Part shown: piece after piece, positions 8,901 to 39,540 of the stretch
How the letters are laid out: each line of letters opens with the position of its first letter
How positions within the stretch are numbered: the first letter of the stretch is position 1
Source of the DNA: Marsupella aquatica
Lineage: Eukaryota > Plantae > Marchantiophyta
Direction of reading: 5' to 3'
Assembly (NCBI GenBank): GCA_973895155.1
Contig: OZ316893.1
Span: forward strand, 21,374,955-21,438,954
DNA length: 64,000 bases
Notes under the pieces: generated by a model
What the model saw: the letters and a program-made list of their open reading frames with translations, nothing else
Databases searched by the model: none
Told to the model about the DNA's origin: nothing
Made by a program: the position numbers and the translations under genes

Positions 8901-10087
8901 CTCGACCTCTATGCCACCGTTACCTCGATATAAAGAACTGGTCTCAACTTTGGAACCTCACTATTCAAAATTAGCTGCCGCGAGCAATGTGGCGAGAAAA
9001 CATCCTATATTCGAGTACAACGATGCTCAGGTATGCACAATGTTTCGGGATCAATTTTCTTCTGTATCTCTCGATTAGAGATCGCTTTCTACTGCCTTTT
9101 TGCTCGTAGTTGTCGCAGTATTCCAGTGAAACCTTAGGTATACTAGATTCATGTTTGTGGAACGATGTTTGAGTTTGGGAGGGGAAATGCTGCATCGAAT
9201 TGCCTGTGAAAGTAGCCTCACAAGCCATCGTATCCAGTAGGACGAGAGTAATTTCTCTTCCACTGTAGTTAGTTTTGGAGCTGCGATGCCAGCTGCTTGG
9301 TTGTTTTGGAATTATGGAAATGGCTTGGCAAGGTTATGTTCGAATACAGATACAAATTTGAAGGTGTTCTTCATGCAGGCAGCAGCAGCGGATGGCTTTC
9401 TGGCAGTTCTTCGAAATTACTTAGAATCCTTATGTATGGATCTGCGGACACATACAATTACGAATGTGCAATCCAATGATGACAAGGTAGTTTTGTGTTT
9501 CATAGAACGGCACTTCTTGTTTGGGATTTTCTGATATTCGGTGCAATCTAATTAGTTGCTGAGTATTTACTCATTTGTCTGCTGATGTGGTTCATTGGAG
9601 TCAATTTGATGTTACTGTTAAGACCATCTTGAACGAGTTTTTTACCACTTACAATTACATCTGGTCTTAAGTAGGATTTAAAGGGATGGCTATGCCAAAA
9701 GCTGGACTTGGTTGTTGGAGGTAGAAAAACCGTTTCAAACCGCTTTGTGGGAGCAACTCGGTTACTGATGGAAACTGTTATTTATTCCAGGTATCCCTTT
9801 TACTGAAAGAAAGTTTTGTAGATTCATTTGGGCATCGAGATCGGCCATTTATGAAGGTACTTTCGACGTGAAATTCTCGAACATTGTAGTACGCTCATGA
9901 CACACTGAAACTAGATATTTTCATTAGGCATTCTTATGTTTCAGCCTTCGACCGATGCTTCTTTCAGAAGCTGAGGCAAACCTTTCTACTAACTATTCCA
10001 TTGGTGGTGTCTATCCAGCTATTTGCAGATACACAACAATTCTCAGTCTACACAGATGCTGTCCTCTCAAGCTATCAACATAGTTAA
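2947..10087 (+). CDS. DENN-domain protein (plant uDENN/DENN, putative Rab GEF), about 18 coding exons
   Basis: Spliced reading frame with approximate exons 2947-3252, 3566-3775, 3892-3975, 4200-4259, 4538-4582, 4841-5040, 5267-5788, 6132-6252, 6820-~7020, 7183-7271, 7679-7741, ~8005-8079, 8264-8314, 8536-8613, 8896-9030, ~9379-9486, 9791-9856, 10019-10087. Motifs typical of plant DENN proteins: FEHFVVVGL, VLFKYPPGK..LPAFCFP.GV, VADNVTLYGVCV, PRCYCFLTR.PFF.LHFEVL, FAGALLEKQMVVICPNLGVLSA, RPYEWQSLLLPILP..MLDFLEAPVPFIVGV, FMKLFADTQQFSVYTD. A long intron-containing 5' UTR probably starts near 1340. Confidence 0.93.
3483..3563. repeat. 40-bp tandem duplication directly upstream of the DENN exon 2 acceptor
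   Basis: cgtctgtgtatcactctgacgctgtgggtagtac(t/a)tctga occurs twice with one mismatch; the acceptor AG at 3564-3565 follows copy 2. Confidence 0.9.
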
Positions 10088-11849
10088 TGGAGACAGTCGC
10101 GCAGTCCTATTACGAGGCTCACTTGTACATTAAATTAGAAATCATTTTTTTTCATAAACCCTTAAAAGGGTGGAATACTCACTAGTTAGGACTCCGCTAC
10201 GGCTACCTCGGGCAATATTTTGCAATATCTCCGGTAAAATAGACGCATTTGTAATGGAGGATGTTCAAGCATTCTACTCTTATTAGGGATCCAAATTTTA
10301 CGGAGTTCCTGAGGTCGCATGGTAGACAAATTTTGCTGGTTTCAGTAGGAGGAAGGGAACTGTCTATAGCTGTTTGGGGACGTTACCTGTGTTGACTCCC
10401 CATTGATGTATCTTCAGATGCAGTGAATTAAATATCGCGACGGTGAATACGCTCCACAAAAGTTGGAGTTTGATGAAGATTTCCATGTGCCAGCGTGTTC
10501 CTATAGTTTCTATTCGCGAGACTCGTTGACTTGTGTTCCTTCTTGGATTGTTTTGGATCCTACTTTTTTTTATGCTCCTCGTGCGGGTGTTTGAATTTGG
10601 AATGAGGTGTATCTGAGATGTCGATCGCAGGACTGAATTGCTTGACTGTTTGCTGGTGAGGAAAACAGCGCTGCGACGTTTTCAGTATGAAGAAAGTTCT
10701 GGAATCATCTTTGGCTTCGGCTGTTGCATTTTGGCTGAAAAATATGTGCGGATTTCTCGGTGAAATGCTTCTCTGCAGACCTGCTGCGAATCCACTCCAA
10801 TGTGTCCTTTTGGAATTGTCGGTGACACAGTGCTGAAGAGTGAATCAGCGTGAAATGTTGCCAAATCTAAGAATTCATCATTCATCATACCTCGGGTAAG
10901 CTTGTCCGAAGCATGAATCTTGATATCGAGATCAAGAAGCCACACTTAGCTCGGCAGAATAGCTGTTCCAGATGCTACCGCTCTCACTACAACCCTCGCC
11001 AAACAAATATCCATTTCAACCCTCCATCTTACCGGAATCCGAGACCGCCATCTCTCCAGGATGAGGAAGATCAATCAAATTCTAGAGACGCAGGACGAAC
11101 TGGAAGCCTGAATGAAGAAATTGATGATTCAAAGCAAATCTCATGGAAGACTCTCCGGATGCACCGAGCTGTGGGTTCTTCCGAAGGATGATTGCACCGT
11201 CAGGGTTCGAGATGTCGAATTTGCGTCGTTTCATATTTTGGAGGACGGTGATCTTCTTCCTTACGCCTAGAACCTGTTAGTATCCCGACTGCAAGTTGGC
11301 TTGCAAGATTTGCACCTCAATAATTGGCCGACTTCCGGCAATTGATTGTCGAAGGAGGAGTCCTACTGTAGATCGTCACCGAGATGGTGGAGAACGGAAA
11401 TAGGAGATTGTGAAGTAGACATTGATAGAATTATGAAACCGAGATCTACTTCACAGGATGGTGACAAATTGTGTACTCCTTTCGTGCTGAATGAGATTGT
11501 GCAATATTTTGTGCACAAACGCTCTATCAATGTGAGAGTATATATAGCTTTTGTATGCTTCCTGCTCGAACCTGATCGAGCCTACCCTAGGCTGGCAAGC
11601 ATTCATGCACAAATTCTGCATACCAGAGTGCTGAGAAACACCTCACTAAAATGCAAAATGAATGGGGAAGAACACATTTTTTCTTCTGTGCGCAGTTTGT
11701 TGTGATATTTATCAATGTCTTTCACTCACTCTGAGCAGAACCCTCAGTCTCTATTTGCTGCTGGCCACATTGTATGGCAGACTGGTGCAAATGCTCTCTA
11801 ATGTTGTTCTCTATCATGCCCTGCACTTCTTGACTGCATGGTACTAAAA

Positions 11850-13070
11850 TGATTGTGGACAGGACTGGGGATTAGCTGGAATAGGAGATATCTCCATTTC
11901 TAAAATCTGAGTCGTGTTTTGAAGTTTTTGCCTGGTATGTATAGAATGAACAGAATGAACAGAAGATGGCTATTCTATTGACGAGTCCCTATTCTATTGA
12001 CATATCTTTGGCCATCATGACCTTAGTGATTTTTCACTTTGTATTTTTCAGCTGAGAATGCCTGGTCAAGATTTAGATAAAATTTTCAGTAAGATTCTCC
12101 TCTATTTTTACTTAAATTGGTGTAAATAAAATCTATTAGGCAAGTGTATTAAGGTCCTATTTCCAGAGCGTTACGGGGAATAACTGTCTAAAATAAAGAA
12201 TGTCTTAGGCCCTTAAGTGGGTTGCCTTATCTATATGATAAAGCGCAATCAAAACCTACTCCTGGGGCCTACTATATAGAGTGAAACCTCTGGATAGTGA
12301 CTCTATGGGTATAATGAAAGTGATGACGCAAACAAAAAGCAGGATAGAGGTAAAGATGAAACAGAAACATAGCATGGAATACTTCTTTATGCAAAGTTTA
12401 TTTCTCCTCATCCTATTTACCTACAAGGAACTGGTAGGAAAAATGAATTTTTCTTCTCATCCCTATTTGCCTTCAAGGAACTGGTAATCAGACTAGTGGT
12501 GGCAAACCCTTCGAGGAAGGTCAACGAGTAACACGGCATTGGCGAAAAAACATACACTTCATTCGGTAGCCGAGGAAGCTTCCTTTGAGTTTCGTGTACC
12601 CACAAGCAGTGTCAAGGGCTAATACAAGTGTACTACGGTTTCTTCCTGTGGGGTTTCAAAACAAAAAAATATTTTATCTTTATCATGTTGTTCTTTGCCC
12701 GCACTTCTCGAATGCAAGGTACTGAATTGATTGTGGACCTGGGGATCAACTGGAAAAGGAAAGATCTCCTTTCTCTAAATTCTGAGTCCTGTTTTGTAGT
12801 TTTTGTCTGGGATGAATAGAATCAACGGAACACGGCTCTTCTACCGCCAAGACCCCATTCAGTTGGCGCGTCGATCTTTGACATTTTTTGCCATGAGGTC
12901 TCCTTTTCATTTCTCGAACCTTGGTGTCAAAACCGTTCTAGCAAGGCGGAAAAGTAAACCCAACTGAGTACAGCATGATCAATGGCAAAAAAGTACACGC
13001 TTCATATGGTACCCGAGGAAGATTCCCAGAGTTTCTTGTGACCAAAAGCGCTGTCAAGGCCAGCTTTCGT
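11850..13070. repeat. Diverged direct duplications upstream of the NB-ARC gene
   Basis: About 11850-12030 resembles about 12728-12895 (tgattgtggac...ctgagtc.tgttttg.agtttttg.ctgg), and about 12500-12620 resembles about 12940-13060 (ccgaggaag...gagtttc.tgt..cc...gc.gtgtcaagg). Confidence 0.7.
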
Positions 13071-13854
13071 GTCTTCAGAGCTAAATTATAGCAGATTGAA
13101 GAAAAAATGAGCTGTTGCATGCGACATCCTCATTTCCTCGGTCTCTCTTCCACCGAAGGATTCAATGGCGTTTTGTCAACTCGTGAAAGTGTGGCTGCTG
13201 ACATACTTGATCTGATGCCTTGCGCACGGGCCCTTTCTGTCGCAGGATGTCCCAATGATTTGCTGGAGCAGGACTCTGATTGATGTGCAACAAGCTCGTA
13301 GCGGGGGTTCGCCGTAGGATCGAGTGATGTGATGCGTTTCTTCGATTCAATCGGTGTGGTGTGTTGCTGCGCGCAGCTACTGGAGGTTTGAGAAAATATC
13401 AAGAGCAGGTCAGCTTTAATGGTAGAGAGAGTAGTGTGATCGAGGGCGTTCGTGAATTTTTGAGAAGGCCATGCCCGGCTTGTTCAAGGATGCGTCTTAG
13501 TGTTCGCCGTCGCCGAGTTGTTCGATGTCCTAAAAGTTCTTGGATTCTGACAACGCACCTATTTGTCAGTTAATTCTGAGGTTCCAAAAGCTGAGGTTTA
13601 TCGTTGATTGTGAGATTCCAAAAGCTGAGGTTTATCGTACCAGAAGCATATCAATCTGTTCTAGAAACTGCCTGCTGCACATCATTAGTGGGTAGGTTGC
13701 TCGTAGTGAAAGCACATCCATTTGCTCCCTAGAAACCGCTTGCTTTGGATTTGGGAGGTAAGAATTTCTTCTACACCGATGCAGTGAAGGGCAGGTGACG
13801 GGTGGAACCAACTCAGAGTCAGATTTGTATCCTTGTTTAAGGCATTTGTCTGCG

Positions 13855-16800
13855 ATGGTAGTTACTTTGGTAGCAGAAGCTGCTTTGGTGGGAAGCATCG
13901 TCTCGACCGCAACATTTATACAAAACTGTACGACAGGGTGGTACGAGGCAGACATTGCCTGGGAGGACTTTCCTGTTAAAGTGAAACATCTTGAGGTCAC
14001 GCATAAATGTTGGAAGGAGCAACTTGAAAGACATGGTTTTACAACAACGTTACCAGTCAGCAAGCTGACGCAGAGTCTGGATGCAGCATGTAAACTACTA
14101 GAAGATGAAAAGGCCAAGCTACGGAAGAGAGGTGAACAAGGAAAAAACTCGAGAAAGATCAACAAGGCCGTGTCCAAAGTGACTGGCGCTCTGTTCCCTG
14201 CTAGTATTGGAGTAGCAATCGACCGCGCTATCAAGGCGTATGATGATTTGCTTGTTTTGTTGAAAACAAAGGTGGAAATAGCAAGTGTACTCGGTAAGAT
14301 AGCACAGTCCCAGCCAAGCTCACTGCCTTACCGCGAAGATGATCGGTACGTCCCTCTGGCTGTGGAGGCAACAGTCCTTGCCGCTTTAGATAATTCTTCC
14401 GGCCCTTTGGTGGTTCTGTTGTTTGGTGAACCTGGGCAAGGGAAGTCAATGTTGGCACACCACACCGGCCTCCTCTACCAGAAAGAGATCGACGAGTGTG
14501 GATCACGGCAAGTAAATCGAAGGGGTCCTCAAGACGAAGAGCGGATTACCAAGGCTCCGTTTGAACTGATCTTATATTTGGACTGCGGTCCAAAGGCTAA
14601 CGCTGATGCCAAGCAAATCGATCTCTTGCAATTCCTTGGTTGTGACCCCAAGAAATGTACATCAGTTGAACATCAACTACAGATACTCCTCAAAGTCCGA
14701 AAGCTCCTGATTGTTTTGGACAATGTTTGCGAAGAAGATTTTCTTCAAAGAATGATTAACGTGTGCGGTGCTGGAGTGAAGCTGTTGGTGACCTCCCAGA
14801 GGGAAGATTTGTGTAATGATTTGAATATACACAGTTACACACCTATTCGGATGGACGACGTTTCGCAAGACGAAGCGTGGAGAATACTCGAATGTCATAT
14901 TGGAAAGTCCACTCCTAAAGACATCAAGGTATATCTAGTCCCCTGAAATTTCATCACGATGATTTCAGCATCATTCATCCTGTATGTTTTTGCTAGTCTT
15001 TCTTGCTCTTTACCTCATTATAGTGTTAATGAATGATAATGAGATATAACGAATTGTCCAATGAGGGCCAGGAAAGAAAGCACGAGGGGAGCTGATATTC
15101 AAACAGCACAAGCATCTGAGTTCATTACCTTTACTTTGATCGTCAATTGCGTTCGTGCAACTTGTAACATGGATGCACATGTTCTTATTTCAGGTAGTCG
15201 AGAGATTGATCGAAGAAGCCCGTGGAAATCCTCTGATACTAGCTCTAATATCTTCAGAGATTGATCCCGGTAGAGCTCATGAGGAAACAGAGTGGCAAAC
15301 AGCATGGAATAACTTAGAACAAATTCTGCGCTCCTCCGAAAGTAAGAAGCTAATTTATGGCAAGCGATATGGAAAGGGCTACTTCTCTGCAATGCAATTA
15401 TCAATTCAGTCCTTAACACTGGGAGCCCGAGATTTGCTTACTTTACTACATTTGTGTGAAGGACCCTCCGTTCCAGAGGAAGTTGTTCAGATTCTACATA
15501 GAAGAAGCAAACCTCGGCTGCATGCATCATCATTCTCAAGACTCAGGATGGAATTAGAGAGTCGAAAACTCGTCACAGTCAGTACTACATCTTCAAGCTC
15601 AGAGAGTCCTTTGAGATCATGGTCATTGCACTCCCTGACAAAACGGTTCATTGAAAATGAAATGGGAGAGAGCAAGACATCAATGTTGAAGTCACTGAAT
15701 GGAGGTTACTGGGAGTTTTACCTTTTCGGCAGCCTAGTTTCAGTGTGCATGTCATTTAGAAAGTACACCATTTGGGAGGTTGGGATTGTGTTTATTGTTG
15801 GTCTACTACTATGTAAATTCACTAGGTTCAAAGCCATGGTCGAGAACTGTTACAGAAAATACTTGTCGTCAGCTGCTCCAAGTCCCTCTTTCTTGGTGGC
15901 TAACAAGACTCTGTTGGTTGGGAATTGGTACCGTTCAAGCTCACATTATCTGTTTGAATTCATTGTGATAGTGGATTTGGCTATTTTCATACTGATATAC
16001 TTGGTCATAACTAAAGAGAGAGTACGAGACTCATTAGCTAAATATTTTTCTGACTTAGGTGGGCCGGCCCTGTATATGCTTCTCACTGTTTTACTTTCAA
16101 AGTATAGTAGAGCGAAGAAATGGAGTTGGGGATGGCGTTGGGAAACTGAGATAGAGACAGTTTTATCTGCAATATACTTGGATGGACGATATAGTGAAAG
16201 GAGGGCTGTGTGCGAAGCGATCGCACATCACCGGGGGAGACTTAACAGCACCATAGTTCAAGCTATCGAACCAGTTACAAGACTACTTGGGCAACCCAAA
16301 AGTGATCGTTGGCCGCAATCTGCGAAGGAATGTGCTGCACGGGTGAGTTCAAGAGCACTTTTAGACTGAATCTCACTACCACGCAAACTTCTGCAAGTAT
16401 GGAGAATTTGTTTCACAATGGATAAGTAAGTGGTATTTTGAGAGAATGCAACATTTTCCTCCCCATACAAACTAACCATGGTGGGCACGTGTCGATTGAG
16501 GCCAGGTGTTTCTAAGTTACATCTGCTTGGATCGGTGGGACGTTGATGGCATCAATCACCTAATTGCCTTGCCGGTTTCAACCCTCCCCATGCTCGAAGC
16601 TTTAGAGAAAATGCTGAATTTGGCAACGGATTGTGATATTGCACTGCAAGACTTGTTGGACGACAGAGTAGATCTCTGCCTGAAAGGAGTTGTGGAATTC
16701 ACGAGAATGTTTGCCTCAGATACAGGAGGCAAAATTGGCCGCTGGCCGCTGCTAGAGGAGCCTTTTAAATTACTTGGTAACAGCAACAATAATGCCGTGC

Positions 16801-17162
16801 GAGATCTCACAGGAAACATTCTGGTGAGATTAGATGAAATCTGTCGATGCACTGGTGATCCATTAATCAGACGAATAGGGGTTAATGGCTCGGTTAATGG
16901 CCGACTACCAACTCTGGCCTCGGATATTGACCAGACTATCCTTGGTGGGGCGGGAAAGTGCATGAAGAATGTCCTTCGACATTTACAGCGGGAGCATGCA
17001 GGGTGCTGTCATCTTCGTGTGAAGTGGATTGAGTCTAAGATCGATTTGATTCTTGAACATGTTTTTTGCACGCATGGTGTACCTTTCTTCAACAGACTCT
17101 CCACGTTGTGCAGTGCTTCTTATTATGATATGTTAATTCGAAGTGAGTGTGTACAATGTTAA
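13855..17162 (+). CDS. Non-canonical NB-ARC (STAND/NLR-like) protein, 959 aa as modelled: helical N-terminal domain, NB-ARC, hydrophobic/TM segment, helical C-terminal domain; no LRR
   Basis: Exons 13855-14928, 15194-16342 and 16506-17162 join in frame through phase-0 GT-AG introns. P-loop GEPGQGKS (14425-14448), Walker B LLIVLDNV, RNBS-B-like KLLVTSQ, RNBS-C-like VSQDEAWRIL, GLPL-like GNPLILAL, MHD-like WSLHSL. Confidence 0.88.
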
Positions 17163-17189
17163 TTAAAACCGAAGTTGGGGATGGGCAGC

Positions 17190-17235
17190 AATGGAGACAT
17201 TGTCCGTCCCCATGGAGACATTGTCCGTCCCCATG
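17190..17235. repeat. 21-bp tandem duplication
   Basis: atggagacattgtccgtcccc occurs twice. Confidence 0.9.
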
Positions 17236-18248
17236 GGTTGCGTAACTGGCCATGGATTCACTCAAGTCATCAGCCGCCTAAAGTCATCAGCCAATTTACA
17301 CTCCAAAGAAGAAGAGACCTATTGCTTTTGGGAAGGACTTTTGGGAAGGACTTTTCACTTTGGTGATGGATGCCCTTACTAGTGAAGAAAAGGGAAGGGA
17401 CCTCATTCTTTGCAGAATTACATTTCACTTTGGTGATGGGTACCGGACTAGTAAAAATGACGAGACCGATTGCTTTTTGGGGACGTTTCACTTTGGTGGT
17501 GGATGCCTTGAGTAGTTTTTTCAGGTATCAAAGCAAGTGCAAACTGTTAGCCTTTTAGTAGACTTGTCCATTATACTCATTTCACATCGAGTATATCCGT
17601 GTATATCAAAGAGCATATAATTGCATTTTAGAGAATTTCAGAATTTCAGTGTCATGTCAATAGTTCACCATATAGGGTGTCTATGCCTCAAAACGGAAAA
17701 CTTACCGAGATCTACACTTCACAATAATTGCATCTTAAAATCATTTGTATTTTTTTCACATCACCAAAAAGATGCAATCAGTGTGCAAGGGTACGTCCTA
17801 AGATTGGAAGTAAGTGGGAGAGTCTAGAGGGTAGGTCTAGTTTTGGAGGGCTCAGTTATGCAAATATGGCACATTAAATGCAACAAAGCTTAGGGTCATT
17901 TGATCCCTTCTAAAGAACGACTTCATTTTTTTAATGGAAAAACATTGAATTCATGTTTATTGAATCCAATTTTGGGCATTGCAAGAAAATGTAGAATTTT
18001 TCCAAGGTGAAATCTGTGAAAGTCCACATAAAAGGAAAAAGTCAGTCATTACAATTGAACTCAAAATTTATCAGTTTCCACTCAAGTTACAGTAGCTACC
18101 ACACAGCTATGCCTCTATGATGGGCAAAATGTAGAGTTTTTAAACCATCTTTGGTGGATTTCAAAACGATTGGGTAAAAAAGTAGTAAGACTTAAAAAAA
18201 ATAAAAATTAGGATGTTTAAGACTTTAAAGCTTTGCACACGTGATTGC

Positions 18249-18452
18249 GGACCCTTACAGTGGACTCGATGGATCCCTTATAGTGGACTCGATGGATCCC
18301 TTATAGTGGACCTCAAGGGTTTACTGTTCACCTAGGCAAATGAACTCTGGCTGGTAGAGCAGGAGCCTTGCTATTATAATGGTTCACCTAGGCAAATGAT
18401 TAGGCAAATGAACTCTGGCTGTTCGAGCAGGAGCCTTGTTGTTATTATAATG
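18249..18452. repeat. Tandem repeat cluster: about three 23-bp units, then duplicated gttcacctaggcaaatga / gcaggagccttg units
   Basis: cccttatagtggactcgatggat repeats with a 23-bp period at 18249-18312. The gttcacctaggcaaatgaac motif recurs inverted at about 52065-52085, indicating a dispersed repeat family. Confidence 0.75.
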
Positions 18453-21400
18453 GCAGCTGTGGTACGAAATCTAGTTTAGAGAAGTTTAGCCAAAGACTTG
18501 GAATGGGGCCATGTCAGAACTGCAGTTAAACTCACCAAAGGACACGAGTTTCTGGTTTAATATTTTGATCTGGTAAGAGTACGGAAGAGATCCAGATGGT
18601 TCAATAGGGGACTATTGAAAGATAGTACGTAAGATAGTACGTAAATTAAAAAAACCATTGTGACATGTGCAGAGGAAAATGTACTGGTTAACTGCCAAGG
18701 ATCCATCCCAGACTACCATGCTAACTTGCTAAGGCCATGAAGTGGGTCAACTTTCAGCAGAGCTTTATAACCTCATAAACTAAGAAGGGGGGCCATTTGA
18801 GCCCGATCAAGGTGCTCTAAAAGAGGATTTTCTTTGGAGCCTGGAGGTCAGGGCCGGAATTTTATGGACCATGGATGTACTTAGGGATGCCAGGATGTAA
18901 GGGATGCCAGCTTGCGCTGGCTGGACTGGACTAGCCAGACCTCAACTGGACCCATCACCCACAAACCCCATCCGGACCCGAGCGGCCATAGGGTGAGCAG
19001 GGCCAGCACATGGCACAGCCCTCACCTGGGCTCTTGTTGACACACTCCACACCTGGATAAGGAGACCTTGTTTGCCACATCAAAGGTCAGTAGTTGTTAA
19101 TGACTTAGTCAAGCCACAGACGTAGGGGAAAAGGGGAAACATTTGATGTTGCTTGTTGAGAGGAAGCTTTGGGTTGAAGGTGGGCAGGCTTTTATGATTA
19201 AATTGACCATATGAAATCTGGTAGACCAGGTAAAGTTATATATCATGGATGGAAGTGTCTCTTAGATAATTATAAAAAAGAAAGTTTAAGAACTCTTAGA
19301 TGAATGAATGCCCAAATGAATGGATACTTGAAAAGGTTCTGGTCTTGATATTTGGCCAAGGTTACTCACGGTGGCTTAAGAGACTATTCCAAATGACTCC
19401 ACTACAACTTAAAAACCATTGGAACCACAGGGACAGATATTGGGTGACTCCAGGACAGGCCCTAGCCTAGGAAACAGAGGGTGCCTGGTGGTATGTGTAA
19501 GGCATAATATATATTTGGATGTGAGGGTTTCTCCATACCATATGTGGCAAACATATTAAACATGGAAAGCAACAGATTAGAGTCTTTTCTGACTCAGATC
19601 TGCCAATCTAATATCTTTTTACTTCACTGTATCAATCAGTACTTGACTAGGAAGAAAATGAAAATTTGAAGAAATTCACGTTGATTGTGGTTTCCACTCA
19701 GTTCACTTGACGAATAAGTAATTACTGACTTGTATATAATCGTTCTTACCAGTTTGCAAGCCACAACTAGTGTAGCTTTCACATGAGTTACAATGATCCT
19801 CAAGCCTATAACCATTCTTGCATGTATTGCAATTTTCACACAAGTGAGTTCAATATGCACCAATGGACATTACATGCTTCTTGTCACCATTGATCAATAA
19901 ATCTGAACAGCTTTTTACTAGCCTGTCCTCCAAACTACCCATTATTGTTAATGTGCCCCCCAAGAAAAATTAATTATCAGCCTGCCTCCCATTTTGTATT
20001 CGGGTTAATATTAACTTGTATAGGGTTCTCATTGCCATGTAGCAAGTTACTATTGGATAGTAAAAAGTTGTAAATATGAATGCCTAAGAATGAGTTATTA
20101 TCTTATTTTGTTGCATCAAATACCAGTCTCTGTTTGAATTTGTCGTCAAAGAATGTGGATCATTTGTGCATCTAAACCAGACATTTCCTTCATGAAAAAG
20201 GACAAGTTAAGACAAAAGTAAAGAATCAATAATTAAACAAAGCAAGGAGAATGTCTACAATATATTAAGGCACGGGGAGACCAAAAAACGATGGAATAGA
20301 GAAATATAATAATGTAAAGAATTGTAAACTTACAAAGAAACTCTTCAAGTCTCTGAATCATTTGAACATTTCTCAGTTGCTCACGATGTCAACTACTCTC
20401 CCATGTGTTCCCTCCTCTTACCTCCTCTTAGTCAACAGAACAACTAAGTGATTTAGCTTTTAACAGGCCTGCCCATGCAAGATGCATGAAGCAACTGCTC
20501 TAATATGCTCTAATATCATAGAATCTAACTATACTTCACTCAACTCATCCCACAAAGGAATGATTGGAACTTACAAAGAAAGAGGTATGCACGGAACTGA
20601 GTCCTAAGTCACAATCCCACTGGAAATAATCCTACTGGTTCTAACAATACATATCCTATCTAATCCTCAACCAGTTAGAGAGAGTTGACTTGCATGCTAA
20701 TGTAATCTAAGGGTGGTTTTACAAGAACTTGGGGGCAGCAATTCCTTTTTTTCTAAGTGACAGAATAGATGCAATCTTAGCCATTCATATGTACGTTGTG
20801 GGAACTGGCCACACTTCACTTTACATGAACTTGGGGGCACAATCAAGGAAAAACATTACCAAACCTAGTCATCTCTCAGTGGGCCCCTTGTGGGTCCCTT
20901 TTTTGGCTGATGTGACAATGTGTGCAAGCTTTTTGGTCAAAAACTTGGAAAACTTGGACCTCCTCTTGAGGTGGTCTAAAAACTAGGAGCAAACGGCAGC
21001 TTCTTTCAAGGAATTGCATTGATTACTTCCAGACCTCACAAATTTTTGCTCAGGCATTTTAACTTTTGTGTAAGGATCAGCTTTGCTTTGGATGGAGAGA
21101 CACTGAATGGCCCCCACTGCCTTGAAAAGCCCCCCTAAGTAAGCTTAAGAAACATTAAGAAACCAAAGCTAACTCGTGGATCTCTCCAGCACAAATATAA
21201 TTCCCTAAAACTTTGCCCACCGAACACCATACTTCCATCTAAATAATCTGATATTGATTTCACCCCTCCATCTCCCCATCTTCACTTTTGAAATCTTCTA
21301 AGTAATTTACTCCACAATCCGGCCTCTATAAGAACTCATCTCACTCTTTAGTAGACAGATCTGATCACCAAAATTCAGGATACTTGATTCTCACAATGGT

Positions 21401-22598
21401 TGCAACAAGTTGGATAATATTGTTGCCCAGAGCCTCAGGACTTGTAGACACAACTCATTCACACAGCTCCTGGTCACTTTTCCGTTTGTTTCAGGAAGTG
21501 CTTGGAATTAATCGCTCGGTATGTTATCAAATTGCCAATCATGCCTTCCACACAAAAGCTGCAATCTCTCTCCTGATCAATCTGCACAATGATTTCCATA
21601 CAGCCCTTCATGAAATCTCATCCCAGTAGGCTGGTGTGGGAAGTGACACTTGGAACAAGTGTCTGGTCAAGAAGTAAATGTGTTATTGCAACTTGCACGT
21701 AAGGTTTATATGTTTCTAGACACTTCACGATCGTCCCTGTACCTAAGGACACTGAAAAACACCATGAGGGAACACTCTTTGAGAGTACTCCAACACATCA
21801 AGCACTTTTTCCTGTCCCGAGCAAATTTACCAACGATATAAGTTTTATTCTTGGCTTCTTCAATGTTTGATGAGGTTGAGCTCTTGCCACAACCCTGAGT
21901 GGTTGTGATTCCTCTGGCTTGGGATGATCCTAGTGGTGATGTTGGGCTCAGATTTGATTTAAAGTGCTTTGTCACTGTTGCTGACCTTGCTTCCTTTGGC
22001 ACCACTAGTGTATGTTGGACTGTTGTTGTCATACTCTCAGTTTGGGATGTTGATGCTAGAGTTGAAAACCCCGCTTCCATGGTTCGTATTGCCGCTTCTG
22101 ACTCTGTTGTTGATCTTTCACTTGCAGCTGTTTCTTTTCTACTCTGTCCTCCTTGTATGGTTTGGGCCTGACTTAATGTTCCCTTGGTGAGGGGTTTCAT
22201 AGATTTATCGTTAAACTTAAAAAAAAGAAAGGAATTGGGACACACTATCTTACTTATAAATGCCCAACTGTAAGCTAGAGTGGTGGCCTAGACCATGGCT
22301 CATTATGTGGATGTAAAACTCATGACTATGATGTATGTCAAATGCATACTTTTTGTCAAAGTATTTATTTGCATTTAAAAATTGGGTTCTATGTTCACAC
22401 AATAACATCTCAGCATAGAAAACAAGATGTGCATTCAAAAGAATATGATACATGTTGTGCATAGAATGAAAGATGTACATACAAACCAATATGATATGTC
22501 ATGAATGATTATTAAATGATGACATGCATGATGATTTTTTTATAAGTGAATAAAATATATATTTTGGTGATATTTTTATTGTACTCCCTAGTATCTCC

Positions 22599-22657
22599 AG
22601 ATAGTAGGGGCTAGTATTTGTAATTCTGGAGATAGTAGGGGCTAGTATTTGTAATTC
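22599..22657. repeat. 31-bp tandem duplication
   Basis: agatagtaggggctagtatttgtaattc occurs twice. Confidence 0.9.
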
Positions 22658-23704
22658 CAAGCAGCTTTAGTGGCTATGTAATTAAATTTATTTTATTGTT
22701 TGCGCCAACAGATAGGGAGGATATTGTAGGGACTGAAGTGCTCTATGCTCCCTCTGATACTGGGACTGTAGAGACTGCAGTGCTCCCTATAACACGGTAG
22801 AGACTGAAGTGCTGTGATATAGCTGGCCACAACCGTCTGCCAAAGTGCCAATGTGCCAATGTGCGCGATTGGAATCCTTCTCGAACTTAATTCAACGCCG
22901 CCAAGTGCCGGCATTCAAGCGTGGAACGGTTCTCACTCCTCACCATTCTCGAGAATCTGGACTGTTTCCCATCCAGAACAGTCGTGGATTTTCTAAGCCA
23001 AAAGCCCAAAAGTCTCGCGGCATTGTGCTGTGATTGTGCTCTGCTGCTGCCCCTCTGGATTTTCGGCCGGCTCTCTCTCTCTTTTACTCAGTCGTCGATA
23101 TACGTACTGCAGTGCTGCGATTCTTCTCGGTTGGCCGTCCACAGAAAGGCAATCGCTCGCAAGGCTGGTGGGTTTCAGTGTCAAAGCAATTCCTGGGTAG
23201 CTGTGGTCTCCTCCTCTGTCGTGCGAAGAATTGTCCCTCTTTGTTGGTGATTCGATGGATTCTCCTCCTGCGGAAAGAGAATTGCTTCCAATCTCACCGA
23301 ATTGAGTCGAGTCCTGCAATCGGAAAGTGTCGGTCCTAGAGAGCGAGCCTGAGGTAGTTTGTGCCGCGATGGAAATGTTTACTACCAAGTGTGTCGTGCC
23401 TTTAGTTTCCTTCGTGTGAATGGCGTTATGTTATGTTTCCAAATCGATCTACTGTCGTCTGGAAAGGCGTCTGGCTGTTTCTTTCGTTTTGGTCCCTCAC
23501 AAACTTTTTTCGCGAAGTTGTTCGACTTTGGGAAGAAGCGAATGGTTGAATGCTACTGACATTACACTTCGGTTGCGAGGACTGGTGAATTCAGAGCGCA
23601 GAGCGAGTGTTCTACACACGGCAACTGACTGACGTGCATAAGGCAATAGGGGTGGTGGCGAACGGAGCGAAGGAGCTAGAGTTGTTGCTTTGAATCAATC
23701 ATTC

Positions 23705-24148
23705 ATGACGATGACTTCGATGAGGGTGATTCTAGTACTTGTGCCGTTTCTTTTGAGCACGGTGCAGCTGGGCCATGGCGCTGTTGTTGTGAACAATACC
23801 TCCGCATTCAACGTGAGTGTGTATGACACGAACACGACCATTATCATTGATACGTTGGAGCCCAACCAGACGACATCTTTCCCGTTGGACACGGCAGGGC
23901 CTGATTTCTTTATAGTCAGGAATCAGAACAAGGTGGCGAACTTCAGCGTACTGGTCAGCGATGGCAGCGAACTGTACCTCTACGGCAAGCGCAAGGTGTC
24001 GTACACAATCTATCCCCCACTTCAACCAGCGCCGACGGCAGCGCCTTCTTCAGCGCCTTCTTCAGCGCCTTCTTCAGCACCTTCTTCAGCGCCTTCTTCA
24101 GCACCCTCTTCAGCACCTTCTTCAGCGCCTTCTTCAGCACCTTCTTAA
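23705..24148 (+). CDS. Small secreted glycoprotein with a beta-rich domain and (SSAP)8 tail, chimeric AGP-like
   Basis: Signal peptide MRVILVLVPFLLSTVQLGHG/A; several N-glycosylation sequons (NNT, NVS, NTT, NQT, NFS); C-terminal PAPTAAP(SSAP)8S with the AP dipeptides typical of arabinogalactan glycomotifs; intronless CDS. Confidence 0.75.
   Translation: MTMTSMRVILVLVPFLLSTVQLGHGAVVVNNTSAFNVSVYDTNTTIIIDTLEPNQTTSFPLDTAGPDFFIVRNQNKVANFSVLVSDGSELYLYGKRKVSYTIYPPLQPAPTAAPSSAPSSAPSSAPSSAPSSAPSSAPSSAPSSAPS
24041..24145 (+). repeat. Coding 12-bp minisatellite, TCTTCAGCRCCY x8
   Basis: Directly visible; encodes the SSAP units. Confidence 0.95.
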
Positions 24149-28322: not shown

Positions 28323-29702
28323 TCCTGGACGTGAAGGGTGCTCTTCACATTTGGTGCTCGACCAGTCCTTCGCAGTGCCCCAAACCCGCAACTCCCTGGT
28401 AGTGAATTTAGGGAGTGAATTTGAGAGTCCCTAATAATTAAGCTTTTACAAACCTTTTCGTACACACGTAGTAGACAGGAACTAAAGGCAGGATTTTGTG
28501 TCACAAACTCACTATCGGAAAAACCCTTCTAAGCCAGAATAAAAAGCTGACAAGATTCCAAGATTCAACCAGCCAATACCACAGAAAGGAGTCGAAACGC
28601 TTCGACGCTGGGTTGTCATCTCCTGAAATTGCTTGATGATGATCGTATTCCTGTCAACCGATTTGGAGGGTCACATTCTCCATATTCGTGCGTCAACTCT
28701 CACTGATCCACACATCACCCACTCCGTTTCCTCAACAAGGTCGTGAATGTTTTCATAGTGCCCCGCCACTGCAATCACCTTGAAGATGATCTTATCGTGA
28801 GCACCATCTTTTCTGGAAAGATTGCTCCTAGAGAACGCCGATGCAGCTTGAAACTTGGAACTTCGGACAATTGAGCAAGAATGCGAAGCATCAAGCATGG
28901 CATATGTTTCGATCTGATCATCTACTCTACATCGTTCCAGTTTGATCAATCTCATTTGCCATTTACCACCCGTTGACCCGAAACCGTCGGGCACGCAATT
29001 GATTGAGCTGGTTGGAACCCGGGGTGGGAAATGCTGTCAGTTGCTTTGTCTTACTTAGGAGAATGTTCATAAGAGTACACTGTCCACCGCGATCAGTGTG
29101 AGTGTAGACTAAGTAATGTGTCTCACATTGATTTGTGTCCCACTCAATTTTGTCAGGAGGGGAATTTGACTCTTGTGTGACGTAATTTGAAGAGCTTAAT
29201 CTGACACTAATTGCGGTTGAAACTTCAGCCCAAGGGAATCCTCTAGAGGGTGCCCAAGGGAATCTACTCGCTGCTGCAGTTGTCCGTTGCGTCTGTGGCA
29301 GTGCATATTGCTGAGATCAGCGCCAACCAACTTAAATTCATGATAAGATATGGCGGCCATGACGATCGGTCCCTTCGCGATTGCGCAGAATTGAGGTCCC
29401 TTCCCGGGTCCGTTCCTCCCTTCTTTCCATAGCTGGAGATCTGATATTCAATTGTGAACCGTCAACAGACCAAAGACGATTGATCTGGCCTGGACCAAAT
29501 ACACAGGACTCTATCGTCGATTCATGCACCTTCGTAGTCGTCGGGATTTTTCCTGATTCTAGTCGATGAATTGAACCTGGATCGACACTGTCCAGTTGCA
29601 TAAATATGTCACTCTCCTCTACGATGGACGTCTACACAATTGTTCTTGGGCATCCTCTGGACGTATTTCCCTCTGGCAGAGAGACATTGACGACGCTTCA
29701 CG

Positions 29703-30809
29703 ATGAGCGGCCTCCCATTTCTCCTTGGTCTGTGCTTCGTGTTTCTCAGTAGTCATGCCACGGCACTGTCCGAGCACATGACCGCAAAACTTACTTGCCA
29801 TGACTTCGTTTTCAATGTCTCGACGGTCTCATTCAACGATAGTGGCGTCATCCAGCCAGCAGCATCGTATAGCATCAGCGCGACGTACTGTCCTCCTACC
29901 AAGTTCGTTCTACACCGAGCCTCGACAGTCCAACTCCTCATGCACGGAGGGACAGGGAACAAGCTCTATTGGAGCGCATTGGCGCCCGTTGGTTCTATCA
30001 GGCAATACCAGCCCTATTCTTATTCGTACGTGGATTTCGCCAGAGGCGAAGGCTATCACACTATCGCAATTGACAGACTTGGAGCCGGAAATTCGAGCCA
30101 TCCCGATCCCACGCTCGTACGAGCAGGCTTACAGGCTGAACTCACAAACACAATCATCCAACAAATTCGCCGAAAGCTTCTTCCTCTTCAGATTCCTCTC
30201 TGCAAGAAGCTCATCCTCGTTGGCAATTCCTACGGCTCATTCATCGCGAACATCATGCTCGACAGATATCCAGAGGCTGTGGACGCGACTATCCTGACAA
30301 GCTTTGTGCACGTCTCTTCCAGCGCTGTGAGCACGATTATAACACAGCCGTTGGCGCCTGCGAGGACAGTGTTCCCAAGCGAGTTTGGAAACCTCGATCC
30401 TGGGTATCTCACCTTCTCCAACGAGACTAACCAACGACAGTGGTTTTACAGTGGAGTCGGAGATTTCGACCCCGAAGTTGCTGCCACGCAATACAGTCGC
30501 GAGGATGCGCAAGCTGTCGGCGAGATAGATAGCCTCAAAGCCGTGCTGGCCGGCTCGTTCTCCACAGACAAATCTCAGTACGCGGGTCCGTTGGCCGTGA
30601 TGATGGGCAAGGAGGATGAGCCATTTTGCCATGGCGACTGTGGGACGGGCAATTCGAGCTTCATAGCTCTGTCGGAGAAGTTCTGGCCGAATGTCAGCCG
30701 GTACACGGGATTCATGTTGGAGAATACAGGGCATTTGTTGCAGTATCATTTTAGTGCAAGGAAAGGGTTTGAGCTTTTGTATGATTGGTTGGAGACAAGT
30801 GGTTTTTAG
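29703..30809 (+). CDS. Secreted alpha/beta-hydrolase (Abhydrolase_6-like), intronless, 368 aa
   Basis: Signal peptide MSGLPFLLGLCFVFLSSHATA; oxyanion-hole strand TVQLLMHGG; GYHTIAIDRLGAGNSSHPD; nucleophile elbow GNSYG; candidate acid in GKEDEPFC; candidate catalytic His in TGH. Confidence 0.92.
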   Translation: MSGLPFLLGLCFVFLSSHATALSEHMTAKLTCHDFVFNVSTVSFNDSGVIQPAASYSISATYCPPTKFVLHRASTVQLLMHGGTGNKLYWSALAPVGSIRQYQPYSYSYVDFARGEGYHTIAIDRLGAGNSSHPDPTLVRAGLQAELTNTIIQQIRRKLLPLQIPLCKKLILVGNSYGSFIANIMLDRYPEAVDATILTSFVHVSSSAVSTIITQPLAPARTVFPSEFGNLDPGYLTFSNETNQRQWFYSGVGDFDPEVAATQYSREDAQAVGEIDSLKAVLAGSFSTDKSQYAGPLAVMMGKEDEPFCHGDCGTGNSSFIALSEKFWPNVSRYTGFMLENTGHLLQYHFSARKGFELLYDWLETSGF

Positions 30810-33130: not shown

Positions 33131-33885
33131 GAACCAAAATTGTCAAAGGCAGGCCCTCACTAAAACAAGTCAATAATAATAATGAGACCACAAAGTCCCA
33201 ACCCCTCTACTAGGTGGTACCCGAATTATATTTCCCCACGTTGCATGAAAACGGTGTCACCTTCTGAAATGTACACGCACGACCCACAGAAGAGTCGGTG
33301 AAACAAAGAGCCGTCGATCTCTTCAATCGACGTCGGGTGGCTAGCTAACACCGACCCAATACGGCGACAGTGAACCGCGCGGTTCCCTCTATGCGAACGC
33401 GCCGGGCATCTTCTCAGTAACTACTTCTATACCGGCTAGCTTCCCGGCCACGCAAGATTACGTGATCGCCGACGTCCGTATCGACGACTCTGGAGCCCTT
33501 CGGCCTGGACGGAAGCATCTGAGTCGTCATTAATTGTTGCCGAATAACAGACCGTGAAAACATGCCGCCGGGAAGTTCCTCGAAGGCCACGCCGGCCTAC
33601 CTTCACCGGTTGTCCTCGGAGTATGCAGGCTTTCGCTTCCGGAATCACATCCCGACGACTAGATTACATAGAATTCAAGCCGTCAAATTCCTAGATCTAC
33701 GGACAAGATTGTCTAACCTTTTGGGGATTTCTTCATGCCTTAATTAAGAAATCAATATAGAGGGGTTCGTAGTCGTCTGCCACGCTCTCGAGCGAATTGT
33801 ACATTCTGCGTTTCTTCGGGGAAATCGACATTAGTGTTGCGTTTTTCTGTCATCTTTTGGTTCCTGAGGGCGGAGAGAAAGGTGG

Positions 33886-36800: not shown

Positions 36801-37113
36801 GTGGGATACACCGGTAAAGCTTTGGCATACCCTACGGGCTATCATTTGTTGGAATGTGTGGAAGGACAGAAGCACACATTTTTTTGAACACATCAGACCT
36901 AACCCACAGGGGGTTATTCGGAAATCCTGGCATCGACTCGGAATTTACCTCCGAAAGGACTGGGCACGACACAGAGTCCGCATTAGGGCTGGCAAGACCA
37001 CCCCAAGAGAGGCCCGAAATGAGATGTCCTTTAACTACGGCACCTGGATAGGCCTGTGGGAGATCCACGATGAAGCTCTCCAAGTTTCACCTGTCCCTCC
37101 ACGTCCCCCGTGA
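33886..37113 (+). pseudogene. LINE ORF2 (RT plus zf-RVT) with a single in-frame stop
   Basis: The frame is open from 33886 to TGA 35824-35826 (probably TGG>TGA in DLPL*), then continues in the same frame through 35914 to 37113. Confidence 0.9.
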
Positions 37114-37451: not shown

Positions 37452-38276
37452 AGAAAGGTGGGTCCGCAGATGTTGCACTCCAAAGATGATCGGGGGTTCA
37501 CTGTGTAGTCGTAGGCAAGATCCCAACGCGGCAGACGATCTGCTCTTTGTATGATTATTGCTGTCGAACGAACAGAACGGTTTGCTTGGTGAAGAATTTC
37601 GGTAGACTTTGTTTGGTTCTTGACGTTTCTGGTGAGAACATAAGTCTGCGTTGAAAGTGGAGTTGGCGGAATCAGTCGGTTTGATTTTTAGGCCCAAGTC
37701 GACTGCAGAAGAGTTTTTGTTTGATTTCTAGGTTTGATTTTAGGCCCGAGTCGACTGTAGAAGAGTTTTCGTTTGATTTTCAAGTTTTGTCCGCCGAAGA
37801 AGTCGTTTCCTCACAGGTTTAGGTACAGTACGTGAATTTCCGTGTCTCCGACGACGGGGTCGTTTCTTTACAGTTTGAATCAGTGATCGATCATCTGTTC
37901 GAGGATGGAGCATTTTGTTTGATGCAAATTTTGATACATTATCGCCGTCTTTCTTTCAACTAATTTTCAAATGCACTTTGTTGGCTGTGAAATAGATTTC
38001 AAGCGAGCGAGCTCGACAATTTGTTGACGATTAGGGCGTTTTATTGGACATGTGATCGGCGCTGATTATTATACATTGAAACAGAGGTGGCCGCAGGAGT
38101 TGGGAACACTCTAAGGGAAGAAGTGTCAGGGAGGTGTTCTTCTAGATCGAAATCCATTTGAGGACATAGAGAAGGACTTTAAGCTCGCTTTTGATAAATC
38201 AAGTGCTGGCCATTAATCACGGAAAGGAGAGCAGAAGAGAAGAGCACGCGGACAGAGAGACTAAAGAGTGTCAAGT

Positions 38277-39540
38277 ATGGTTTCGGAGGTGAGGACAGTT
38301 GAGCTGGTGATCGGTTCAGCCACTGATTTGAAGAAGGTCAAGAAATTCGGGAGCGCGAAGCAGAGATGCTACGCTGTGGCGTACATCTACGCGGCGCAGA
38401 GGCAGGCCACCCATGCTGACGATTCTGGCGGAGTGAACCCAACCTGGAATGCGCCTTTGCCTCTCACATGCTACGAGACCGACCTGTATCCCGACGGCAG
38501 CAGTGGCAGCGGCTGGGCCAACCCATCCTCATCCTCCTCTTCGTCCTCTCGGGCTATCACCATCGACATCTACGCCCGCAGCAGCGGTTATTTCAGCAGT
38601 GGTGACAAGCTCGTCGGCACTGTGGCCGTTCCCCTTCAGTACATCGCTTCTGCAGTGCAAGTGACGAACCTCCAAACGATGACGTTTGATGTGCGCCGGC
38701 CATCGTCCGGCAAGGTTCAGGGCAAGCTCAACCTGATTGCGAAGCTGGGACCAAAACACGCCCTCATCGGAAGCCCTGCACCTCTTCAACAACAAATGCC
38801 GTCCTACGCGTATCATAGGAGCAAGGTCAGTAAAGATCACAGTTCCACTCCTCTTTTCGTCTCATCTCGCCTCTCCCAGAGGACAAAAGAACAACGGATC
38901 AGTCATGAATTGAATTCTGTTAGCTAATGTTCATCAGTCTAATCCTATTCGTTTTGAAAGCTGAGTTTCCCAATACTGGCTGTAGAAATTTGTCAAGGAA
39001 CCTCATGAATTCTTTGCACCTTTTGTGGAACTAATGAAACAAGAAAGTGGTCACCTGGGTCCAGTGTTGTTTAATCGTTCACTTGAGGCGAGGACTGGGT
39101 CCTGTTCTGCATTGGGTATGAACCTTCTTCACATTCTTAGCTTTGGTCCATTTTCTGATAAATGTGGTTATCGCCAGGTGGAGAATTCTCCCATGATGCC
39201 TCCTCTCGTCACAAGCTACAGCACGGCATCGAGGGAACCCTCTGCTCTAGCTGTTTATGATCCTAATCTGAACACTTTTGGCCAGAAAGAGGTGGTCACT
39301 GGGTATCCTGCCTCAGGCTATCAATTTGCTCCTTTGGGGCCACTGCCAGCACCAGGGCAGGGACAGCTACAATTACAGGCACCCTATGTTGTTCAAACAC
39401 CTATGACTCGCCGACAAAAACGACAAGCCCGCCGTGCTCAAAGGGCTGCAGATCCTAGGCGGAGGGCAGTGAGAAGGAAACGCATGAAAATGGGTGCAAT
39501 GATTGTTGGAGGGATCATCTTGGGGTTTATACTTTTGTGA
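38277..39540 (+). CDS. C2-domain protein (SRC2/BAP-like) with Pro/Gln-rich region, basic stretch and C-terminal hydrophobic tail
   Basis: Exons 38277-38825 and 39178-39540. C2 motifs VELVIGSATDLKKV, THADDSGGVNPTWN, DKLVGTVAVPL, FDVRRPSSGKVQGKLNL; tail RRKRMKMGAMIVGGIILGFILL. Confidence 0.9.

What the first reader, a model, noticed from the sequence alone, without database searches (positions are those of the whole stretch)
13855..17162. NLR-like NB-ARC protein with predicted membrane helices in place of LRRs
Seen in sequence: a complete NB-ARC motif series is followed straight after the MHD-like WSLHSL by three to four hydrophobic segments at about 15707-16105 (YWEFYLFGSLVSVCM, IWEVGIVFIVGLLLC, LFEFIVIVDLAIFILIYLVI, PALYMLLTVLLS), several flanked by K/R, and then a helical C-terminal domain. 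No LxxLxL repeats are present. The N-terminal ~150 aa look like an amphipathic helical bundle starting MVVTLVAEAALVGSIV, loosely reminiscent of MAEPL/MADA-type executioner helices. Established: plant NLRs are soluble NBD-LRR proteins, and TM-bearing STAND proteins are better known from bacteria and fungi. Inference: a membrane-anchored immune STAND receptor of possibly undescribed architecture that might sense membrane or luminal cues.
Basis: partly seen in the sequence, partly recalled or inferred. Interest (0 to 1): 0.75.

Follow-up and report, generated by a model that had tools for sequence, protein, structure and literature searches.

The report
Liverwort NB-ARC-ARM receptor with membrane-like insert
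This gene belongs to a liverwort family of immune-type ATPase switches that carry armadillo repeats instead of LRRs, and it alone among the 46 relatives compared has an extra ~125-residue hydrophobic stretch, which likely tethers the protein to a membrane but may instead be spliced out as a hidden intron.

Summary
The 959-aa model (exons 13855-14928, 15194-16342, 16506-17162) and the NB-ARC motifs are confirmed. The protein belongs to a liverwort four-helix-bundle + NB-ARC + ARM/HEAT(+TPR) family (nearest: Calypogeia fissa proteins, 36-39% identical), of the rice RLS1 architecture, so lacking LRRs is a family trait. The hydrophobic stretch does not replace the sensor: it is a private ~125-aa insertion in a normally hydrophilic linker (178 aa against 29-116 aa in 46 relatives), and family homology resumes after it into a shortened, diverged ARM region. 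Two segments are TM-strength (KD19 1.85, 2.78); the other two are weak. The insert is real DNA in two studies, stop-free (4 of 20,000 shuffles) and has no detected relative. But its best GT and AG sites bracket 354 nt in frame, with intron-like composition; removing them gives a 60-aa linker and a soluble 841-aa protein. No RNA run was listed. Best reading: a translated membrane hairpin with both flanking domains cytosolic, possibly an exitron. A luminal sensor is unlikely. New variant of a known kind, one gene, untested.

The parts
13855..14928 (+). Exon 1 (aa 1-358): N-terminal helical domain and nucleotide-binding part of the NB-ARC
   Evidence: M1 invariant in 20 of 20 rows of alignment A2
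13855..14301 (+). Predicted four-helix bundle (helices aa 2-25, 34-59, 70-99, 116-149) with hydrophobic first helix; CC/HeLo-like, class not established
   Evidence: AlphaFold2 model; whole-model Foldseek alignments to CC-NLR resistosomes; ESM Atlas leads to fungal SesA/PigL_N clusters at 0.86-0.87, under the 0.9 level
14425..14448 (+). P-loop (GEPGQGKS), intact
14704..14727 (+). Kinase-2 / Walker B (LLIVLDNV); the second Asp is Asn, as in 4 of 22 relatives aligned
14929..15193 (+). Intron 1 (GT-AG, 265 nt, GC 38%, T 34%)
   Evidence: homology continuous across it; a 4-nt deletion in other alleles
15194..16342 (+). Exon 2 (aa 359-741): ARC1/ARC2 winged helix, the insert, and the start of the family's post-WHD helical region
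15620..15637 (+). MHD-position motif WSLHSL; a His not followed by Asp is the family norm
15705..16150 (+). Lineage-specific hydrophobic insertion (~aa 529-677; about 125 aa more than the median relative), no detected homologue
15707..15760 (+). H1 (aa 530-547): weak, amphipathic (KD 0.81)
15767..15823 (+). H2 (aa 550-568): TM-strength segment (KD19 1.85)
15953..16009 (+). H3 (aa 612-630): strongest TM-like segment (KD19 2.78), with one Glu and one Asp
16052..16102 (+). H4 (aa 645-661): weak, amphipathic (KD 1.06); mostly outside the candidate exitron
15705..16058 (+). Candidate exitron or cryptic intron: GT...AG, 354 nt (118 codons), in frame, stop-free, GC 39%, T 36%
16142..16342 (+). Family-conserved helical region after the linker (aa ~675-741)
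   Evidence: BLASTP second HSPs at 28-42% identity; family HMM
16343..16505 (+). Intron 2 (GT-AG, 163 nt); relatives' genomic ORFs leave the alignment at the same place
16506..17162 (+). Exon 3 (aa 742-959): first ~40-60 aa match the family; the rest is a short, diverged tail where relatives have ARM/HEAT repeats

Best explanation
This is a fast-diverging member of the liverwort four-helix-bundle/NB-ARC/ARM family that has gained a private hydrophobic insertion, which is likely translated and predicted to form a membrane hairpin that would hold the otherwise cytosolic switch on a cell membrane. Shown: family membership, intact P-loop, position and size of the insertion, its open frame, two TM-strength segments, the shortened ARM region. 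Inferred from structure: the helices after the insert pack back on the winged-helix domain, so the chain would cross the membrane an even number of times (H2+H3, or H1+H2 and H3+H4) and both the NB-ARC and the ARM remnant stay in the cytosol. Inferred by analogy with CC-NLRs and RLS1: an ADP-bound closed state opens on a cue at that membrane (a guarded membrane protein or an effector), oligomerises, and the N-terminal four-helix bundle triggers defence or cell death there. The in-frame GT/AG pair may make most of the insert an exitron, giving an anchored 959-aa and a soluble 841-aa form.
For: Family: BLASTP 36-39% identity over aa 9-526 and 30-33% over aa 675-819 to three C. fissa proteins; family HMM 539 bits over aa 7-798 with one long insert state; sister to four C. 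fissa proteins without the insert, support 97/98. Insert: linker 178 aa against 35-70 in 24 of 24 exon-2 relatives and 29-116 in 22 of 22 longer relatives; best KD19 in their linkers at most 1.61 against 2.78. Coding signal: stop-free in 4 of 20,000 shuffles, 4-14 stops in the other five frames; both hydrophobic peaks reached in 0.3% of stop-free simulations and 0.035% of residue shuffles. Real DNA: an identical contig bridges the whole insert in run X2 and a ~2% divergent allele in X4 keeps the frame with no indel or stop. AlphaFold2 models the insert as long helices; structural alignments to Apaf-1 and plant resistosomes run from the WHD to residues 321-337 of exon 2, i.e. past the insert (ranges give first and last residue only).
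Against: The best donor (15705) and best acceptor (16058) in the insert's flanks are in the same phase, 354 nt apart; the acceptor outscores 170 of 170 exonic decoy AGs and the donor all but 5 of 129 decoy GTs; removal gives a 60-aa linker, inside the family range (rough matrix from recalled frequencies, which scored the real intron-2 acceptor poorly). Composition of the 354 nt is like intron 1 (GC 39%, T 36%) rather than the flanking exon parts (GC 43-48%, T 21-28%). T-rich non-coding DNA reads as hydrophobic protein: the most hydrophobic window among the 47 hits (2.15, P0039) lies past the exon end, in what I infer is intron read-through. No purifying signal: 1 synonymous and 9 non-synonymous differences in the insert, 8 and 17 in the NB part, Fisher p=0.23; absence of stops among 10 changes is expected half the time anyway. 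H3 holds a Glu and an Asp; the H2-H3 loop has 6 K/R and 1 D/E, which argues against a simple H2+H3 hairpin with that loop outside. Model confidence in the insert is low (block pLDDT 39-73). No dedicated TM predictor was available. Long branch (0.84) and a degenerate ARM tail also fit a decaying paralogue.
Confidence: 0.5

Rival explanations
1. The 354 nt at 15705-16058 are a newly gained, normally spliced intron that happens to be stop-free; the product is a soluble 841-aa NB-ARC-ARM-type protein and the membrane helices are an artefact of translating T-rich DNA.
For: In-phase best GT and AG, intron-like GC and T content, 60-aa linker after splicing; spliced product has no stop and no window above KD19 1.5 after aa 30; no homologue of the insert in any search; polymorphism not constrained.
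Against: Stop-free 118-codon frames are rare (4 of 20,000 shuffles; 5 of 1,318 overlapping test frames in three mostly non-coding parts of the window) and the hydrophobic peaks are a further 0.3% event. Relatives' genomic ORFs run through this linker without an intron. The donor has a weak intron side. About 30 residues after the acceptor are still unlike the family's hydrophilic linker. The finding was picked from a very large scan, which weakens these chance figures.
Confidence: 0.25
2. The insert is translated but is tolerated baggage or a soluble or peripheral helical appendage in a paralogue under relaxed selection; it does not make a working membrane receptor.
For: Long branch; ARM array cut to 278 aa after the linker against 463-1518 in 15 of 17 long relatives, tail aa 811-959 scoring no better than shuffles on a family profile; pN/pS 0.7-0.8 in the NB part, not different from neutral; two of four segments amphipathic.
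Against: P-loop and other motifs, start codon and both introns intact; the length changes listed inside the coding region are one in-frame 12-nt insertion and a 4-nt loss at the stop codon, whereas non-triplet indels occur upstream, in intron 1 and downstream; high pN/pS is also usual for immune receptors under diversifying selection (general knowledge); KD19 2.78 exceeds every window in the 47 hits.
Confidence: 0.2
3. One reading: the protein crosses the membrane an odd number of times and its C-terminal domain or loop senses luminal or apoplastic cues, signalling to the cytosolic NB-ARC like a receptor.
For: H3 is much stronger than the other segments, so a single crossing cannot be excluded; the C-terminal tail has diverged from the family and is cysteine-rich; an N-x-T sequon at aa 595 survives the K596N allele.
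Against: Residues 675-800 keep the family's cytosolic post-WHD sequence and align structurally next to the WHD, which they could not do from the other side of a membrane.
Confidence: 0.05

Closest known systems
Liverwort NB-ARC-ARM/HEAT(-TPR) proteins, e.g. Calypogeia fissa CAM6094346.1, CAM6094350.1, CAM6101934.1; Marchantia paleacea KAG6558008.1; Riccia spp. (unnamed products)
   Same: Same N-terminal helical domain, NB-ARC motif variants (VTSQ, NPL, W-x-x-H-S), intron positions around exon 2 and post-WHD region; 34-39% identity over aa 1-526 for the five best; nested among them in the tree.
   Different: None of 46 relatives aligned has the hydrophobic insert; most have 460-1500 aa of ARM/HEAT/TPR repeats where this one has 278 aa.
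CC-NB-ARM class, rice RLS1 (PMC10030324, abstract and passages; PMC12512272, passages)
   Same: CC-like domain + NB-ARC + ARM region instead of LRR; RLS1 gain-of-function gives HR-like cell death and gathers at the plasma membrane with its partner RMC.
   Different: The word 'transmembrane' does not occur in the RLS1 paper's main text; orthology to RLS1 was not tested; ARM repeats here are not detectable by Pfam.
ER-anchored plant NLRs TN13/TNT1, RPP1-WsA (bioRxiv 10.1101/2025.04.25.650432, passages)
   Same: Plant NB-ARC proteins, one of them without LRR (TN13), held on a membrane by their own TM segment.
   Different: TIR type, anchor is N-terminal and single; here it is internal, after the WHD.
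Exitrons (PMC4484396, passages)
   Same: Stop-free, often 3n, weaker splice sites, GC lower than exons, can encode TM domains: all fit 15705-16058.
   Different: Exitrons are defined by observed junction reads, which are lacking here.
KAP-family and Tmn/YobI membrane P-loop NTPases (title of Aravind et al. 2004 seen in a reference list; PMC13001434 abstract start); algal NB proteins with predicted TM regions (PMC7145615, passages)
   Same: P-loop NTPases of defence type with TM helices inserted within the chain.
   Different: Different NTPase families; in KAP proteins the helices lie inside the NTPase domain and are family-wide, here they follow the WHD and are found in one gene.

Membership tests
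STAND, NB-ARC (AP-ATPase) class | NB-ARC domain with P-loop, Walker B, GxP/GLPL and winged helix | tested here: met
   Pfam PF00931 above cut-off; motifs; VIA Z 16-17 to NRC2, Apaf-1, CED-4, ZAR1-type chains, rmsd 2.7-3.5 over 174-180 residues
Canonical plant NLR (NB-LRR) | C-terminal LRR domain | tested here: not met
   No Pfam LRR in this protein or in 28 of 47 hits scanned; one LxxLxL only
Liverwort 4-helix/NB-ARC/ARM family | Homology over N-terminal domain, NB-ARC and post-WHD region; placement inside the clade | tested here: met
   (sister to four C. fissa proteins, 97/98)
Liverwort 4-helix/NB-ARC/ARM family | Recognisable ARM/HEAT repeats at the C-terminus (13 of 14 relatives over 800 aa match ARM/HEAT-type Pfam families at E<=0.01) | tested here: inconclusive
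   No Pfam hit on exon 3; hhalign to the family profile E=2.5e-6 over aa 1-177 of exon 3, confident only in the first ~60; tail no better than shuffles by HMMER
CC-NB-ARM clade of RLS1 | NB-ARC phylogeny grouping with RLS1 | not tested
   No RLS1 sequence came from any call; only the architecture was compared
CC(MAEPL) / CC(MADA) NLRs | N-terminal MAEPL or MADA motif by HMM | not testable with these tools
   HMMs not on hand; the N-termini of this protein and its 22 aligned relatives do not begin with either word; motif described in PMC11218826 (passages)
HeLo/SesA/MLKL/RPW8-like four-helix executioner | Four-helix bundle with hydrophobic first helix, significant profile or fold match | tested here: inconclusive
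   Four helices predicted; Atlas scores 0.86-0.87 to SesA/PigL_N-bearing fungal clusters, families on 11-18% of members; no Pfam hit; domain not folded alone
Integral membrane protein | TM helices by HMM or deep-learning predictor and by fractionation | not testable with these tools
   Only hydropathy and shuffles were run: two segments above 1.6
Exitron | In-frame, stop-free GT-AG stretch inside a coding exon | tested here: met
   15705-16058, 354 nt
Exitron | Both spliced and unspliced transcripts observed | not testable with these tools
   No RNA holder listed
NuoJ / nad6 fragment as source of the insert | Significant similarity to NuoJ | tested here: not met
   NCBIfam E=0.016, 15.5 bits against a cut-off of 95; BLASTP to E. 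coli NuoJ E=1.1

The most novel reading that the evidence does not exclude
A plant STAND immune receptor that has built a membrane anchor de novo inside the WHD-to-sensor linker and switches it on and off by exitron splicing, so that one gene gives a membrane-integrated and a soluble receptor.
Probability: 0.2. Interest if true: 0.7.

Novelty: new variant of a known kind. Interest (0 to 1): 0.4.

Why it matters
If the insert is translated and spans the membrane, it shows that the linker between the winged helix and the sensor repeats of a plant NB-ARC protein can take a whole membrane hairpin, a site and an architecture that my paper searches did not show for land plants; the anchors I found described are N-terminal. 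It would be a natural case of a receptor relocating by de novo sequence gain, and, if the stretch is an exitron, of localisation controlled by splicing. It also draws attention to an expanded, little-studied NB-ARC-ARM family in liverworts. If the stretch is simply spliced out, the gene is an ordinary, somewhat degenerate family member and the case is a warning about reading T-rich introns as TM helices.

Tried and rejected
No whole genome is held for this window, so paralogues and a source for the insert elsewhere in the genome could not be sought; within the window there is no second copy of the gene or of the insert (best blastn E=0.35). No RNA holder listed; the four runs laid show no joint at either intron and behave as DNA. 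Word-indexed protein searches found nothing: exon 2 against longer proteins (0 of 7,512 candidates), exon 1 against longer proteins (0 of 5,599), insert region at E<=10 (0 of 201); these are weak negatives, since the exhaustive search did find the family. None of the 47 hits has its best stretch in exon-2 residues 180-320; a few BLAST HSPs drift into the insert at 24-32% identity but those rows have short linkers in the alignment. Insert against Pfam, PDB sequences, ESM Atlas, plasmid tblastn (2 records, E 3-9): nothing. Fold searches of the exon-2 model are filled by the winged helix; the insert was not folded alone, so its fold is untested. The one metagenome locus (L001) is a chance match in a bacterial ORF. 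NuoJ origin rejected. No tandem duplication or terminal repeats explain the insert (only short two-copy repeats). No further ARM exon within 10000-24000. Assembly artefact rejected: bridged by contigs of a second study. Earlier findings: two look-ups returned nothing. Four of the 47 hits (P0033, P0041, P0042, P0045: short or repeat-like) were left out of the alignments. No complex prediction was run.
Full report
Gene model. The + strand holds three open frames at 13762-14946, 15140-16369 and 16500-17162. The model is backed by homology: a profile of 22 relatives aligns continuously across both introns, and relatives' genomic ORFs start and end at the same places as exon 2. No genome and no RNA run were available.

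What the protein is. Exon 1 matches Pfam NB-ARC (E=8.5e-10); its model aligns to NRC2, Apaf-1, CED-4 and other NB-ARC structures at Z 16-17 and has four N-terminal helices. An exhaustive search with exon 2 gave 47 proteins at E<=0.001. Of 20 looked up, 15 carry names and all are liverwort proteins (Calypogeia fissa, Marchantia paleacea, Riccia fluitans, R. sorocarpa); 5 are unnamed. Of the 14 scanned relatives over 800 aa, 13 match ARM/HEAT-type families, several also TPR, and none of the 28 scanned matches an LRR family. In a tree of the NB-ARC core of 23 proteins the query is sister to four C. fissa proteins (97/98) on a long branch. That the window comes from a liverwort is my inference from these matches. 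The architecture is that of CC-NB-ARM proteins such as rice RLS1 (PMC10030324, abstract and passages; PMC12512272, passages; PMC8559963, passages, notes ARM-type repeats in Selaginella; PMC9825502, passages, says non-LRR solenoids are rare). Orthology to RLS1 was not tested. So the missing LRRs are a family trait, and the His-Ser at the MHD position and the VTSQ motif are family traits too.

The hydrophobic stretch is an insertion. BLASTP to the best relatives gives two blocks, aa 9-526 and aa 675-810, that lie only 16-30 residues apart in the relatives. Between the MHD-position His and the next conserved motif the query has 178 aa; 24 of 24 exon-2 relatives have 35-70 (median 52.5) and 22 of 22 longer relatives 29-116, hydrophilic, best KD19 at most 1.61 (43 of the 47 hits plus 3 cluster members; 4 short or repeat-like hits left out). 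After the insert the family's helical region resumes and runs into exon 3; only 278 aa remain against 463-1518 in 15 of 17 long relatives, and aa 811-959 score no better than shuffles on a family profile, though hhalign extends a low-confidence match through most of exon 3. The C-terminus is best read as a shortened, diverged ARM region. The insert has no detected relative; a faint NuoJ match failed a direct test.

Is it real and is it coding? It is real DNA: run X2 has one contig identical over 15598-16423 and X4 has a roughly 2% divergent allele bridging both ends; X1 may be the source of the window, and the runs come from two studies. The frame is open in 4 of 20,000 shuffles of the 354-nt core and 0 of 20,000 of the wider stretch, and the other five frames have 4-14 stops. 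Given a stop-free frame of the same composition, both peaks are reached in 0.3% of 20,000 simulations. These figures argue for present or recent translation, with the caveat that the finding was picked out of a very large scan.

The case against. The insert's core is as GC-poor and T-rich as intron 1. With a rough splice matrix (frequencies recalled, and it scored the real intron-2 acceptor badly), the best GT near the left edge (15705) and the best AG near the right edge (16058) are in phase and 354 nt apart; the AG beats 170 of 170 exonic decoys, the GT all but 5 of 129; removal leaves a 60-aa linker and a stop-free 841-aa protein with no TM-strength window after aa 30. Stop-free, 3n, weak sites, lower GC than exons and TM content are the described features of exitrons (PMC4484396, passages). 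Allele differences give no sign of constraint on the insert: 1 synonymous and 9 non-synonymous, against 8 and 17 in the NB part (Fisher p=0.23; one search showed 40 of 125 rows, but the listed differences match the per-contig counts for the X4 contigs used, 14082-16342). None falls in aa 612-630 and those in H2 and H4 are mostly conservative, which is too few to weigh.

How it most likely works. AlphaFold2 builds the insert as long helices at low confidence. Structural alignments of that model to Apaf-1 and plant resistosome chains span from the winged helix to residues 321-337 of exon 2, past the insert, which suggests that the insert loops out of an otherwise normal WHD-plus-helical-domain unit. 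If so, any membrane crossing must be even, and both the NB-ARC and the ARM remnant are cytosolic. The basic H2-H3 loop (6 K/R, 1 D/E) fits a cytosolic loop between two short hairpins better than a luminal loop. I put 0.5 on a translated membrane tether (constitutive or exitron), 0.25 on a normally spliced intron, 0.2 on a translated but non-functional or soluble appendage, 0.05 on a true trans-membrane sensor. The downstream steps (ADP/ATP switch, oligomerisation, cell death through the N-terminal bundle) are inferred from CC-NLRs and RLS1 and untested. The N-terminal bundle is not shown to be MAEPL or MADA type (PMC11218826, passages); the only lead is a sub-threshold likeness to fungal SesA/PigL_N clusters.

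Novelty. Plant NB-ARC proteins with their own TM anchor are known (TN13/TNT1, N-terminal), algal NB proteins have predicted TM regions (PMC7145615, passages), and KAP/Tmn NTPases carry inserted helices (listing and abstract start only). An internal hydrophobic insert between WHD and ARM region did not appear in my searches of the held library (listings only unless stated), which lacks most subscription papers. Verdict: new variant of a known kind, seen in one gene, with an unresolved splicing rival. Interest 0.4.

Noticed in passing
window 29691-30809 (+): Single open frame of 368 aa from Met with a hydrophobic N-terminus (signal-peptide-like) and an alpha/beta hydrolase match (Abhydrolase_6 E=1.9e-12); an intronless secreted-type hydrolase in a liverwort might be checked for microbial origin.
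   Followed up: partly
window 33868-37113 (+): LINE-like retroelement: RVT_1 (E=9.4e-30) in a 652-aa frame followed in the same frame, after one stop at 35824-35826, by a 428-aa frame.
   Followed up: partly
window 16868-16891 region (exon 3): Run X4 carries an in-frame 12-nt insertion behind 16879 that repeats a short local motif, and alleles in X2 and X4 lack 4 nt at the stop codon (17159).
   Followed up: no
window 15497-15597: Cluster of 9 allele differences within 100 nt of the winged-helix region shared by X2 and X4, 6 non-synonymous by position; X2 holds two haplotypes here.
   Followed up: partly
protein P0050 (C. fissa CAM6117780.1): A relative in which an alpha/beta-hydrolase-like domain (Abhydrolase_6 E=0.0036) precedes the NB-ARC-ARM, showing N-terminal domain swapping in this family.
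   Followed up: no
protein P0034 (Riccia sorocarpa KAL3700891.1): The same linker is expanded to 116 aa by an acidic low-complexity stretch, so this site tolerates insertions in other members too.
   Followed up: partly
window 23642-24148 (+), 38265-39540 (+), 45567-47869 (+), 62795-63505 (-): Neighbouring genes: an APSS-repeat protein, a C2-domain protein, a Myb-like (telomere-repeat-binding-like) protein and a DUF308 membrane protein; no second NB-ARC gene in the window.
   Followed up: no
window 17481-17518: Short stretch downstream of the gene that matches several other contigs in all four runs, i.e. a dispersed repeat.
   Followed up: no
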